A DNA stretch of 64,000 nucleotides from Vicinamibacteria bacterium (lineage in GTDB: Bacteria > Acidobacteriota > Vicinamibacteria > Marinacidobacterales > Marinacidobacteraceae). The notes under the pieces are model-generated. The model saw nothing but the letters and a program-made list of their open reading frames with translations, did no database searches and was not told where the DNA came from. Within the stretch, counting starts at the first letter, position 1, and each line of letters opens with the position of its first letter. A program made the translations under genes and the position numbers. Below, piece after piece: positions 38,431-40,340 of this stretch. Location: NCBI GenBank assembly GCA_964291235.2, contig OZ219815.1:192001-256000 (forward strand), read 5' to 3'.

Positions 38431-38751
38431 TTGATGATGCCGGGAGGAACGCGCCAGGCGCGGACCCCGACCGCACGGACAGCGTGTAGGCACGGGAACG
38501 CCGACCTCCAGGTCGGCACAGCGGCGCGGAGCGCCGCGGGCGGTTCCTCGCCGCTCGCGCTCACGGGGTCCCTCCGAGAGAGAGCCATCCCGGCCAGCCA
38601 AGTCCGCCCCGCCGCCCGCCTACGGCGGGCTGTGCCGGCCTGGAGGCCGGCGTTCCCGTGCCTTTCCGACATCAAGGCTGGTGGGGTTCCCGCCGAGAGG
38701 GGAACCATCCTGCATCGATCTCTGCGGCGGAGGAATGAGAAATCCCGGCTA
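38431..38751. mobile_element. Left-truncated copy of a MITE-like REP-containing element
   Basis: About 320 bp collinear with 48662-48985; ends ATGAGAAATCCCGGCTA. Confidence 0.75.
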
Positions 38752-39003
38752 AGCGCCCGGAGCGGCAAACCGATCGTCCGACTGGTTCTGTACCGGGCCC
38801 GCGGAAAGCGACAGTTCGGAGAACTCAAGGGACGCTTGGCGGTCCCTGCCATCGCCTCCGATCCGCATCCAGAGAGCGAACTAGAGGCATGGGAACGACG
38901 GCCGGGATTCTGCATTCCCCGATGATCCAGACCGACGCTCCAACGTGATGATGATGATGTAAAGCGGCCCGTTCGATCATCAAAACTGATACAGCGCAAC
39001 CAG

Positions 39004-39032
39004 TTGCTGGACGCGGAGGCGCGGGCTAGGCT
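39004..39032 (+). promoter_or_regulatory. Sigma70-type promoter of the riboswitch transcript
   Basis: TTGCTG-17 nt-TAGGCT, ending 8 nt before riboswitch P1. Confidence 0.7.
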
Positions 39033-39040
39033 GCCTCTCA

Positions 39041-39133
39041 ACATCCAGAGGGGGGCAACCCCCGCCAACCTGCCCGGTCCGGGCAAGGTGGCGTCCGATT
39101 CGGAGATGTGGCCGTGAGGCAACCAAGCGGACC
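39041..39133 (+). ncRNA. SAM-I/IV-type riboswitch
   Basis: P1 ACATC/GATGT; J1/2 CAGAG; P2 GGGGG-GCAA-CCCCC; P3 GCC-AA-CC...GG-T-GGC (SAM-binding asymmetric loop); P4 TCCG-ATT-CGGA; P5 GCC-GTGA-GGC; pseudoknot of L3 GGTCC with 3' GGACC. Confidence 0.85.
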
Positions 39134-39178
39134 CACGGGGCTTCGGCCCTCCTCGGATGACATCCAAGGAGAGACACC

Positions 39179-39562
39179 ATGCCCCACCATCACGCCGCTG
39201 CAATCCGGGTCCCTGAAATCCGGGTCCCTGACGACCCGAGTCCGCCGGGGGGCCGTCCGGAAGACCCCCTGGCCGACGCGGTTTCGGCCACCTCCCTGAG
39301 CTTCGTGGCCTGCGGCGCCGCGGTCGCCGAACTCGGTGATCTGCTGCGGGACCTCCGGCTGGCGCTTCACGTTGCGGGGCCACCCGATGCGAGCGAAGAC
39401 CGCGATGCAAGGCTGCTCGCGACCCGGCTCGAGACCGTGCGGCGGGCGCTCCACGAGACCACGGCCGCGGTCGGCGCGTTGCTGGAGGAGTGTGTTCCGT
39501 CCGGCGATGCGCCGCCTTCGCCTGCGGCGGGCCGCGCCGGCCGGGCGCGGGCGGTTTCCTAG
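39179..39562 (+). CDS. Orphan hypothetical protein (127 aa) downstream of the SAM riboswitch
   Basis: RBS AAGGAGAG before the ATG; amphipathic helical core; no recognised motif. Confidence 0.55.
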   Translation: MPHHHAAAIRVPEIRVPDDPSPPGGRPEDPLADAVSATSLSFVACGAAVAELGDLLRDLRLALHVAGPPDASEDRDARLLATRLETVRRALHETTAAVGALLEECVPSGDAPPSPAAGRAGRARAVS

Positions 39563-39888
39563 AGGAAGCCGAGTTTGAGCTTGGCGGCTTCGGACATGCG
39601 GTCCGGGTTCCAGGGAGGATCCCAGACCAGGTCCACACGGACGTTCGAGACGCCCTCGAGGCGGCTGATCTTCCCCTCGACCTCGGGAGGGAGGGTGCCG
39701 GCGACCGGACAGGCCGGCGAGGTCAGCGTCATGTCCACCGCCACCTTGCCGGCGTCATCCACGTCGATCTTGTAGATGAGGCCGAGGTCGTAGATGTCCA
39801 CGGGGATCTCGGGGTCGTAGCAGGTCTTCAGCACGTCCACGACCTGGTCGTGGAGGGTCGCGCCGTTCGTAGCTTCTTCGCTGGTCAT
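39559..39888 (-). CDS. sufT: Fe-S assembly protein SufT (DUF59)
   Basis: DPEIPVDIYDLGLIY, MTLTSPACP and VWDPPW. Confidence 0.9.
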   Translation of the reverse strand: MTSEEATNGATLHDQVVDVLKTCYDPEIPVDIYDLGLIYKIDVDDAGKVAVDMTLTSPACPVAGTLPPEVEGKISRLEGVSNVRVDLVWDPPWNPDRMSEAAKLKLGFL

Positions 39889-39890
39889 GA

Positions 39891-40340
39891 TTACTCCGTC
39901 CGGACGGTCTCCTGGCTCTGTTTGATCGCCGCCCGCAGGGTGTGCCAGGCGAGCGTCGCGCACTTGACGCGCGTCGGGTAGTCGCGCACTCCGGCGAACA
40001 CGGTCAGCTTGCCGAGGCTTTCGTCGTCGGGCTCGGTCTCGCCGGAGACCATGCCGCGAAAGTCCTCGACGAGCTGCAGCGCTTCGTCCTCGGGCCGTCC
40101 CCGCATCGCTTCCGTCAGTAGCGAGGCCGAGGCGGTCGAGATCGCGCAGCCGTCCCCCACGAACGAGGCCTGCTGGACAGCGCCGTCCTCCACCCGCAGG
40201 AACAGCCGCAGCCGGTCGCCGCAGAGCGGGTTGAAGCCGTCGGACTGCCGGTTGGCGGCGTCCATCGCGCCGAAGTTCCGGGGCCGCCGGCTGTGATCGA
40301 GGATCACCTCCCGGTAGAGATCGCGAAGCGCGTCGTTCAC
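39891..40340 (-). CDS. sufU: SUF system NifU-like protein SufU
   Basis: LYREVILDH, NPLCGD, GCAISTAS and RVKCATLAW; GTG start at 40340. Confidence 0.92.
   Translation of the reverse strand: MNDALRDLYREVILDHSRRPRNFGAMDAANRQSDGFNPLCGDRLRLFLRVEDGAVQQASFVGDGCAISTASASLLTEAMRGRPEDEALQLVEDFRGMVSGETEPDDESLGKLTVFAGVRDYPTRVKCATLAWHTLRAAIKQSQETVRTE

What the first reader, a model, noticed from the sequence alone, without database searches (positions are those of the whole stretch)
39004..39562. SAM-I/IV riboswitch controlling an orphan gene rather than a methionine or SAM gene
Seen: a complete unit of promoter TTGCTG-17-TAGGCT, an aptamer with the SAM-clan core (P1 AUC/GAU, J1/2 AGAG, P3 AA/U loop in a GCC/GGC variant), minimal GCAA-capped P2, P4, P5 and an L3 pseudoknot (GGTCC/GGACC). 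A cUUCGg hairpin follows, then a stem where CTCCT (39149-39153) pairs with the RBS AGGAG (39167-39171). Established: SAM-clan riboswitches usually precede sulfur, methionine or SAM genes. Inference: the 127-aa helical orphan is a translationally SAM-controlled protein of unknown function, perhaps a new sulfur or SAM homeostasis factor.
Basis: partly seen in the sequence, partly recalled or inferred. Interest (0 to 1): 0.85.

Follow-up and report, generated by a model that had tools for sequence, protein, structure and literature searches.

The report
SAM riboswitch before conserved small protein
A genuine SAM-sensing riboswitch here controls a small, conserved, lineage-specific protein of unknown function; in related bacteria the same protein leads a normal methionine-synthesis operon, which this genome has lost.

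Summary
Window 39036-39136 (+) matches Rfam RF01725 (SAM-I/IV) at 58.8 bits against a cut-off of 41.1, and it is the only such match in the 3.45-Mb genome. An expression platform follows that can sequester the Shine-Dalgarno AAGGAG. The 127-aa ORF (39179-39562) is a real gene. It has 25 homologues at 51-80% identity, all in one acidobacterial (Vicinamibacteria / "Ca. Marinacidobacterium") family. Pairwise dN/dS is 0.28-0.53. It has no Pfam, NCBIfam or PDB relative, and the predicted fold is a two-helix hairpin. All 17 related loci carry RF01725 above cut-off just upstream.

The gene is an orphan only in a derived sense. In 6 of the 17 loci its stop codon overlaps the start (ATGA/GTGA) of aspartate kinase, followed by asd and metY. 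This genome and 9 others of the genus lack that trio, and I found no aspartate kinase or asd anywhere in this genome. All 10 keep the riboswitch and the ORF intact.

Most likely this is a translational SAM OFF switch. Its ancestral output was ORF-ask-asd-metY, and its remaining output here is the small protein. What the protein does is unknown.

The parts
39004..39032 (+). Promoter-like site: TTGCTG, 17 nt, TAGGCT
   Evidence: Read. Each hexamer matches at 3 of 6 positions (my count), and the consensus scan does not call it. The TAnnnT of the second hexamer is invariant in 13 of 13 aligned loci. No transcription start data exist.
39036..39136 (+). SAM-I/IV riboswitch aptamer: P1 39041-45/39105-09; P2 39050-54/39059-63 with a GCAA loop; P3 39064-75/39081-92; 3' hairpin 39111-13/39118-20
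   Evidence: RF01725 at 58.8 bits against a cut-off of 41.1, model positions 1-99 of 99. It is the only RF01725 match in the genome. The structure is paired in 98.2% of cells over 17 sequences.
39076..39133 (+). Pseudoknot between L3 GGUCC (39076-39080) and the 3' tail GGACC (39129-39133)
   Evidence: 5 complementary bases. One pair changes G-C to A-U in 1 of 17 sequences (L010), and 98.8% of cells in this helix are paired.
39094..39104 (+). Extra hairpin UCCG-AUU-CGGA inserted between P3 and the 3' strand of P1, where SAM-I carries its P4 (that placement is recalled)
   Evidence: cmscan aligns it as an insertion relative to the RF01725 consensus. The closing pair covaries: C-G in 9, U-A in 7, unpaired in 1 of 17.
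39137..39171 (+). Expression platform: cUUCGg hairpin (39137-39150), anti-SD CUCCUCGGAU (39149-39158), SD AAGGAG (39166-39171)
   Evidence: In the minimum-energy fold (-71.4 kcal/mol) the SD is paired, with P(unpaired) 0.00-0.05 for 39167-39171. The SD region is mostly paired in the MFE of all 17 homologues. 2 of the 5 outer SD-helix pairs show changes on both sides.
39042..39159 (+). Predicted alternative (ON) helix: P1 5' strand, J1/2 and P2 5' strand (39042-39056) paired with the anti-SD region (39146-39159)
   Evidence: With the SD forced single-stranded, the best fold (-68.3 kcal/mol, about 3 kcal/mol above the MFE) contains this 14-pair helix. The same partner is chosen in 15 of 17 homologues. 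RNAalifold's consensus also picks this helix. This is thermodynamic prediction only.
39179..39562 (+). 127-aa ORF of a small lineage-specific protein: disordered N-terminus, two long helices (residues 30-65 and 71-105), invariant motif SFVxCGAA
   Evidence: 25 homologues at 51-80% identity. 22 columns are invariant. Variable sites by codon position are 68, 62 and 95 of 104 core codons, and dN/dS is 0.28-0.53. No Pfam, NCBIfam or PDB sequence match. AlphaFold2 mean pLDDT is 72, with 75-88 over the two helices.
39509..39562 (+). C-terminal tail unique to this genome; probable junction left by the loss of downstream genes
   Evidence: The alignment with relatives is lost after about residue 110. 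The stop TAG (39560-39562) overlaps the stop of the convergent gene (39559-39561, minus strand). The deletion itself is inferred.
39559..39888 (-). Convergent last gene of the SUF Fe-S assembly operon (FeS_assembly_P / SufT-like); a neighbour, not part of the unit
   Evidence: PF01883, E 3.3e-21. The same neighbour is found in 8 other loci at a variable distance of 0.2-3.7 kb.

Best explanation
This is a translational SAM OFF switch of the SAM-I/IV class, followed by a genuine small protein gene. When SAM is bound, the aptamer (P1 to P3 plus the pseudoknot) is closed. The anti-SD segment CUCCUCGGAU is then free to pair with AUCC..AAGGAG and hides the ribosome-binding site. When SAM is low, the 5' strand of P1, J1/2 and the 5' strand of P2 pair with that same anti-SD segment. 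The SD is then free and the ORF is translated. Ancestrally the ORF was the first cistron of ORF-ask-asd-metY, and overlapping stop and start codons passed the switch's decision on to those genes. In this genome and in most of its genus the three biosynthetic genes were lost. The riboswitch and the ORF were kept under purifying selection, so here the only output is the small helical-hairpin protein. Shown: the aptamer match, its conserved linkage to the ORF, the coding signature of the ORF, the operon in relatives, and the absence of the trio here. Inferred: SAM binding, the two-state mechanism, the direction of change (loss rather than gain), and any function of the protein. My best guess for the protein is a partner-binding regulator made when SAM runs low.
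For: RNA: RF01725 scores 58.8 bits against a cut-off of 41.1, and 17 of 17 related loci carry it above cut-off on the ORF's strand. In all 16 genomes of the order that hold the ORF, the riboswitch ends 50 nt or less before it (coordinates). The two predicted folds lie about 3 kcal/mol apart and exchange the anti-SD segment between the SD and P1/J1-2/P2; 15 of 17 homologues repeat this. No terminator-like site follows the aptamer. ORF. Operon: in 6 of 17 loci the ORF stop overlaps the ask start (ATGA 4 times, GTGA twice). Those genes match aspartate kinase (catalytic part only, model positions 3-247 of 407), asd_EA at 351 bits (cut-off 301) and OAH sulfhydrylase at 624 bits (cut-off 495). Loss: the trio's Ask occurs in 7 of 28 genomes of the family and not in G000. 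The trio's MetY occurs in the same 7. G000 gives no asd match with a model that rings in 14 of 14 control genomes, and only a 25.9-bit partial aspartate kinase match. Retention: 10 of the 15 genomes of the genus that carry riboswitch and ORF lack the trio's Ask. dN/dS in trio-less pairs (0.28-0.47) is no higher than in trio pairs (0.42-0.48). In another genus (G017) the same riboswitch, platform and start codon lead directly into aspartate kinase and asd.
Against: No experiment or RNA data bear on ligand binding, transcription or translation. The 17 RNAs are 88% identical on average, so covariation is thin: 4 of 45 pairs change on both sides, and the ON helix has no covariation at all. RNAalifold prefers the ON helix over P1, so the energy balance is uncertain. 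The tree of riboswitch plus ORF is unrooted, and one change in either direction explains the trio's distribution. Loss is favoured only by the G017 arrangement and by the usual association of SAM riboswitches with met genes. The genome is 90% complete, so absence of ask and asd is not proven, though G033, a single contig, also lacks both. dN/dS of 0.3-0.5 is a weak constraint for a protein. The G017 form shows that the helical domain is not needed to control ask.
Confidence: 0.77

Rival explanations
1. The ORF is essentially a translated leader. Its job was to relay the riboswitch's decision to ask-asd-metY by termination-reinitiation. In this genome riboswitch and ORF are a functionless relic that has not yet decayed.
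For: Stop and start codons overlap in 6 of 6 trio loci. The trio is lost here. The C-terminal tail is replaced here. G017 regulates ask without the helical domain. dN/dS is only moderately low. Riboswitch-controlled leader ORFs needed for downstream expression are known in M. tuberculosis ppe2 (PMC11260477, abstract and outline read).
Against: The ORF is intact, with 22 invariant columns, in every locus, including at least 8 trio-less ones separated by dS 0.2-0.9. dN/dS is not raised in trio-less pairs. The aptamer and platform are almost invariant in trio-less loci. A relay leader has no need for 110 or more conserved residues.
Confidence: 0.17
2. In this genome the riboswitch-driven transcript runs antisense into the end of the SUF operon, because the two stop codons overlap. 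This would couple SAM status to Fe-S cluster assembly.
For: The two genes converge with overlapping stop codons, and no terminator-like site lies between them. Contigs of two runs of one study bridge the junction (they may come from the window's own source sample).
Against: The overlap is peculiar to this genome. In other loci the gap is 0.2 to 3.7 kb and holds other genes or repeats. The platform controls translation, not obviously transcription. There are no RNA data.
Confidence: 0.04
3. The ORF is a chance open frame in GC-rich DNA and the riboswitch now controls nothing.
For: The window is about 70% G+C and full of long spurious frames. GC at codon position 1 (0.83) exceeds position 3 (0.80).
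Against: Homologues are conserved with the same start, the same SD and about the same length. Third codon positions vary most (95 against 68 and 62 of 104) and dN/dS is below 1.
Confidence: 0.02

Closest known systems
SAM-I/IV variant riboswitch (Rfam RF01725; Weinberg et al. 2010, PMC2864571, passages read)
   Same: Full-length match above the curated cut-off. P2 lacks the internal loop of SAM-I and SAM-IV, which is the feature the paper's passage gives. A 3' hairpin and an L3-to-tail pseudoknot are present. It is found in marine or metagenome-derived bacteria. In relatives it precedes methionine genes.
   Different: It carries an extra covarying hairpin between P3 and the 3' strand of P1 that is not in the family consensus. 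That this is where SAM-I has its P4 is recalled, not tested. Here it precedes an unannotated small protein instead of a met or SAM gene. The paper's additional files, which list gene contexts, could not be opened.
Riboswitch-controlled translated leader ORFs (M. tuberculosis B12 switches at metE and ppe2; Kipkorir et al. 2024, PMC11260477, abstract and outline read)
   Same: A translational OFF switch governs an upstream ORF. Translation of that ORF is tied to the next gene through closely spaced stop and start codons. Here the overlap is ATGA or GTGA in 6 of 6 trio loci.
   Different: Those leaders are short. This one has 109-155 codons, is conserved as a protein, and persists in genomes where the downstream genes are gone. 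Coupling has not been tested here.
metY under a SAM riboswitch (SAM-V of 'Ca. Pelagibacter ubique'; PMC6061858, abstract read in a search listing)
   Same: O-acetylhomoserine sulfhydrylase under translational SAM control in a marine bacterium.
   Different: It is a different aptamer class, and no leading ORF is described in what I read.
Generic antiparallel two-helix hairpin proteins (WXG100 EsxB 4iyh, FlgN 5b3d, CesA 1xou)
   Same: The best structural matches of the model have Z 5.6-6.6 over 71-87 residues. Such hairpins usually act by binding partner proteins.
   Different: Scores are in the range the tool calls a common arrangement for helical proteins. Sequence identity is 6-18%. Foldseek finds nothing. 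No W-x-G motif is seen in the turn. This is no evidence of kinship.

Membership tests
SAM-I/IV riboswitch (RF01725) | Covariance-model score at or above the curated gathering score over the full model | tested here: met
   58.8 bits against 41.1, model positions 1-99 of 99. 17 of 17 related loci score 44.2-61 bits.
SAM-I/IV riboswitch (RF01725) | P2 without the internal loop found in SAM-I and SAM-IV (Weinberg 2010 passage) | tested here: met
   In the window P2 is 5 G-C pairs capped by GCAA. 14 of 17 relatives have a P2 about 11 nt longer with a second short helix. I did not examine those for a K-turn.
SAM-I/IV riboswitch (RF01725) | 3' hairpin after P1 and a pseudoknot between the P3 loop and the 3' tail | tested here: met
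   The hairpin at 39111-39120 is invariant. The pseudoknot is 5 bp, with 98.8% of cells paired and one compensatory G-C to A-U change. Covariation support is thin.
SAM-I/IV riboswitch (RF01725) | Selective binding of SAM | not testable with these tools
   Needs in-line probing, ITC or a reporter.
SAM-I/IV riboswitch (RF01725) | Location upstream of methionine, SAM or sulfur genes | tested here: not met
   The window has only the 127-aa ORF and then a convergent SUF gene. The feature is met in 6 of 17 related loci and in G017. Genomic context is typical of the family, not a structural requirement.
SAM-I (RF00162) / SAM-IV (RF00634) | Match to those covariance models | tested here: not met
   Neither model matches anywhere in the genome at E <= 0.001, while the positive controls ring. 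Only 150 candidates were scored per search.
Relay leader ORF (termination-reinitiation coupling) | Leader stop codon overlapping or abutting the start of the regulated gene | tested here: not met
   In the window no gene follows on the same strand. The feature is met in 6 of 6 trio loci of relatives.
WXG100 / ESAT-6-like hairpin proteins | W-x-G motif in the turn, with sequence or fold kinship | tested here: inconclusive
   No W-x-G appears in the alignment. There is no Pfam hit. The fold match has Z 6.6, which is within the generic range.

The most novel reading that the evidence does not exclude
In this genus the small helical protein, not the biosynthetic genes, is the riboswitch's essential output. 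It would be a protein made on SAM starvation that acts in trans on methionine, cysteine or sulfur metabolism or its regulation, for example by binding an enzyme or a regulator. That would explain why riboswitch and ORF survive intact in 10 genomes that discarded their only aspartate kinase and asd together with the linked metY copy. It would be a riboswitch whose conserved target is a regulatory protein of a new family.
Probability: 0.3. Interest if true: 0.7.

Novelty: new variant of a known kind. Interest (0 to 1): 0.5.

Why it matters
Linkage to a riboswitch is one of the few sequence-only clues to the function of unknown genes. Here a validated class of SAM sensor is tied to an unannotated protein family in 16 of 16 genomes that have it. 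The tie outlasts the loss of the methionine genes downstream. This marks the protein as a candidate new player in SAM or methionine physiology of marine and sponge-associated Acidobacteria, and it gives a clear, testable reporter system. The locus also shows how a riboswitch regulon can shrink to a single leading cistron. In this lineage the only aspartate kinase and asd sit under SAM control and are dispensable in most genomes, which bears on amino-acid dependence in these bacteria.

Tried and rejected
Function by homology led nowhere:
- Pfam, 0 families.
- NCBIfam, 0 families.
- PDB profile search, best E 0.099.
- Foldseek against PDB, 0 matches.
- VIA-align wide, only generic helical hairpins at Z <= 6.6.
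- ESM Atlas, no usable hit.
- Profile search of 1.84 billion representatives: 13 clusters, all small proteins except one 868-aa protein at E 2.8e-05 that I did not follow.
- 400 further genomes sampled across the phylum: not found, with only 11 candidates scored per genome.
- Two weak matches in G012 and G037 (E 2-4e-4) were not followed.

Homodimer test (complex prediction, residues 25-112, two copies): no answer, score 0.02. This is no evidence either way.

RNA evidence: no RNA holder is listed among the 23 runs. The laid contigs show only that the ORF/SUF junction is contiguous in two runs of one study, which may be the window's own source.

SAM-II and SAH riboswitch searches of the genome were negative, but their controls rang nowhere, so they are uninformative.

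I considered an Ask-specific regulatory subunit, because the linked kinase lacks ACT domains. I set it aside because the ORF persists, equally constrained, in genomes without that kinase.

I considered persulfide or metal chemistry on the single invariant cysteine. Nothing supports or excludes it.

Supplementary files of PMC2864571, which hold the SAM-I/IV gene contexts and consensus drawing, could not be seen.

Literature: the search 'SAM-I IV' plus 'riboswitch' found 0 papers, probably because the slash in 'SAM-I/IV' cannot be entered as a search term. The searches listed nothing on this ORF family. I did not search for the family by any other name, so I do not claim that it is absent from print.

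Full report
**1. The observation**

The Rfam scan of the whole window returns one match above a curated threshold. It is RF01725, SAM-I/IV, at 39036-39136 on the + strand, with 58.8 bits (cut-off 41.1), full model length and E 4e-07. The same search over the 3.45-Mb, two-contig genome that holds the window finds this site and no other. SAM-I and SAM-IV models find nothing in the genome while their control genomes ring. SAM-II and SAH searches were uninformative because nothing rang anywhere.

The proposed promoter is weak. By my count each hexamer matches at 3 of 6 positions, and the consensus scan calls none in 38700-40000. However, the T, A and final T of the second hexamer are invariant in 13 of 13 aligned loci.

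**2. The RNA**

The minimum-energy fold of 39036-39200 (-71.4 kcal/mol) contains these elements:
- P1 (39041-45/39105-09).
- A minimal P2 capped by GCAA.
- P3.
- A small hairpin at 39094-39104.
- A 3' hairpin at 39111-39120.
- A helix in which CUCCU..GGAU (39149-39158) pairs with AUCC..AGGAG (39162-39171), hiding the Shine-Dalgarno sequence. P(unpaired) is 0.00-0.05 for 39167-39171.

The L3 loop GGUCC (39076-80) is complementary to GGACC (39129-33). If the SD and AUG are forced single-stranded, the best fold is only about 3 kcal/mol higher (-68.3). It contains a 14-pair helix between 39042-39056 (P1 5' strand, J1/2, P2 5' strand) and 39146-39159 (the anti-SD segment). The anti-SD segment can therefore pair either with the SD or with the aptamer's 5' side, which is the usual logic of a translational OFF switch.

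The same alternative partner appears in 15 of 17 homologous leaders, and the SD region is mostly paired in the MFE of all 17. RNAalifold's consensus for the 17 sequences in fact chooses the alternative helix.

On the 17-sequence alignment the ligand-bound structure is paired in 98.2% of cells. 4 of 45 pairs change on both sides: one pseudoknot pair, the closing pair of the 39094-39104 hairpin (C-G 9, U-A 7, unpaired 1) and two SD-helix pairs. The sequences are 88% identical on average, so this is modest support; the family match rests mainly on the covariance model.

cmscan treats the 39094-39104 hairpin as an insertion relative to the family consensus. It lies where, as I recall, SAM-I carries its P4. 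No terminator-like site follows the aptamer.

**3. The ORF is a gene**

The 127-aa frame (39179-39562) has AAGGAG 7 nt before its ATG. A search of 5.8 billion proteins finds 25 homologues at 51-80% identity, 109-155 aa long. The one name given among them is 'hypothetical protein [Acidobacteria bacterium]'. A profile search of 1.84 billion cluster representatives finds only 13 clusters. The alignment has 22 invariant columns, concentrated in VSAxSxSFVACGAA...G..LR.LR..L.

Over 104 codons present in all 17 loci, variable sites by codon position are 68, 62 and 95. Pairwise dN/dS is 0.28-0.53 at dS 0.14-0.99. AlphaFold2 with this alignment gives a hairpin of two long helices (residues 30-65 and 71-105; mean pLDDT 72, with 75-88 over the helices) and disordered ends. 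Pfam, NCBIfam, PDB sequences, Foldseek and the ESM Atlas give nothing. The wide structural search gives only generic hairpins at Z <= 6.6.

**4. Linkage to the riboswitch**

Fourteen loci from species-representative genomes and three metagenome contigs encode a homologue; L002 and L017 look like the same sequence. All 17 carry RF01725 above the cut-off (44.2-61 bits) on the same strand, ending about 42 nt before the start codon.

Across the 55 genomes of the order, RF01725 matches in 19, once each, and all 19 belong to one family of 28 genomes. The ORF profile matches strongly in 16 genomes: G000, 14 of the 15 other genomes of its genus, and G013 of a second genus. In all 16 the riboswitch lies 50 nt or less upstream (coordinates). 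One genome of the genus lacks both. The record titles of the named loci are Vicinamibacteria, 'Candidatus Marinacidobacterium' and Acidobacteria MAGs.

**5. What follows the ORF elsewhere**

The flanks are syntenic: P450, FAA hydrolase and a C26 amidotransferase upstream, and the convergent SufT-SufU-SufS downstream. The space between the ORF and sufT varies from 0 in the window to about 3.7 kb.

In 6 of 17 loci (L004, L010-L014) the ORF is followed on the same strand by three genes:
- An aspartate kinase that matches only the catalytic part of the models (positions 3-247 of 407, so no ACT domains).
- An archaeal-type asd (TIGR00978, 351 bits against 301).
- An O-acetylhomoserine sulfhydrylase (TIGR01326, 624 bits against 495).

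In all six the ORF's stop overlaps the kinase's start (ATGA four times, GTGA twice). In G017, of another genus, the same aptamer, platform and start context lead into a kinase whose first ~21 residues resemble the ORF's N-terminus by eye. There is no helical domain, and asd follows. In G018 the riboswitch (53.2 bits) precedes a 531-aa protein with no family.

**6. What is missing here**

The trio's kinase is found in 7 of 28 genomes of the family, always at this locus, and not in G000. The trio's metY (92-100% identical among them) is in the same 7, while all 28 have a 46-49% paralogue.

In G000 an asd model that rings in 14 of 14 control genomes finds nothing. The archaeal-type model finds nothing either. 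The aspartate kinase model gives only a 25.9-bit partial match. G033, a single-contig genome, is the same. In the three trio genomes tested, the trio's genes are the only asd and the only strong kinase match. All five tested genomes keep homoserine dehydrogenase. G000 also keeps metX next to the metY paralogue and metK.

So 10 of the 15 genomes of the genus that carry riboswitch and ORF (G000 included) lack the trio's kinase, and the metY copy linked to it is missing from the same 10. I tested asd in only two of them, G000 and G033, and it is absent from both. G000 is 90% complete, so its absences are 'not found' rather than proven.

**7. Direction of change**

A maximum-likelihood tree of riboswitch plus ORF puts the six trio loci in one clade (support 98/98). 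The window sits with L016 and L002 in a trio-less clade (100/100). The tree is unrooted, so one loss or one gain would do. I favour loss for three reasons:
- The riboswitch-kinase link is shared with a third genus (G017).
- Short stretches resembling the start of the downstream gene survive after the ORF in trio-less loci (read by eye).
- The region is littered with palindromic repeats that could mediate deletion.

In the window, similarity to relatives ends near codon 110. The frame then runs through a unique tail until it meets the stop of sufT.

**8. Reading**

The unit is a SAM-I/IV translational OFF switch. Its ancestral regulon was ORF-ask-asd-metY, that is, the route from aspartate to homocysteine, with the switch's decision probably relayed by stop-start coupling. 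A comparable arrangement with short leaders is described for B12 switches in M. tuberculosis (PMC11260477, abstract and outline read). metY under a SAM riboswitch is known from Pelagibacter (PMC6061858, abstract in a search listing).

Here the regulon has shrunk to the ORF alone. The ORF and the RNA stay intact and equally constrained in trio-less genomes. The pure 'relay leader, now relic' reading is therefore less likely (0.17) than a protein with a function of its own. That function is not revealed by any search. A two-helix hairpin with a small-residue motif and one invariant cysteine suggests a partner-binding protein, but this is a guess. A homodimer prediction gave no answer.

**9. Verdict**

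The riboswitch is an ordinary member of a known class, with a small structural variation. The gene association is new and conserved, but derived from a canonical methionine operon. Interest is moderate (0.5), and confidence in the overall reading is 0.77.

Noticed in passing
G000 genome-wide; G029, G032, G013, G033: In this family the only aspartate kinase and aspartate-semialdehyde dehydrogenase found sit in the SAM-riboswitch operon. The kinase is missing from 21 of 28 genomes. Both enzymes are missing from G000 and from the single-contig G033. Homoserine dehydrogenase is kept in all five genomes tested, and G000 also keeps metX, a metY paralogue and metK. This suggests dependence on an outside source of aspartate-family intermediates.
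   Followed up: partly
window 38457-38522 and 38629-38694; L004 7700-8040; L005 4737-5820: These are GC-rich palindromic repeat elements with a core like GCCGGNCTSSAGNCCGGC. Two inverted copies, 76% complementary, lie upstream of the riboswitch here. Tandem copies fill the space between the ORF region and sufT in relatives. One exact form occurs 12 times in the genome. They may have mediated the rearrangements at this locus.
   Followed up: partly
L003 3608-4327 and 4477-4737; L005 4300-4733; L006 4415-4978: In some trio-less loci the ORF is followed by a gene for a cysteine-rich protein (CxxC...CxxC) with no Pfam or NCBIfam family. It is split by a frameshift in L005 and disrupted in L006. 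In L003 it is fused to a second copy of the ORF's helical domain.
   Followed up: partly
L021 / L057 (G018:C100), riboswitch about 148-251, ORF 308-1900 in L057: In a sister genus RF01725 (53.2 bits), with a similar SD-sequestering platform, precedes a single 531-aa protein with no known family. This is a second unexplained SAM-regulated gene. A sub-threshold match (35.9 bits) in G019 precedes a MoxR-like AAA ATPase.
   Followed up: partly
L002 685-1875 (-) and L016 4466-5656 (-): In the window's two closest relatives a 396-aa ATPase-like gene on the opposite strand sits between the ORF and sufT. The window has nothing there, so the locus has been remodelled more than once.
   Followed up: no
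window 39137-39141 and 39181-39185: GGGGC just after the aptamer can pair with GCCCC, which overlaps the G of the start codon and the next four bases. It encloses the SD hairpin in the predicted fold. The invariant ATGCCCC (Met-Pro) may therefore be conserved partly for RNA reasons.
   Followed up: no
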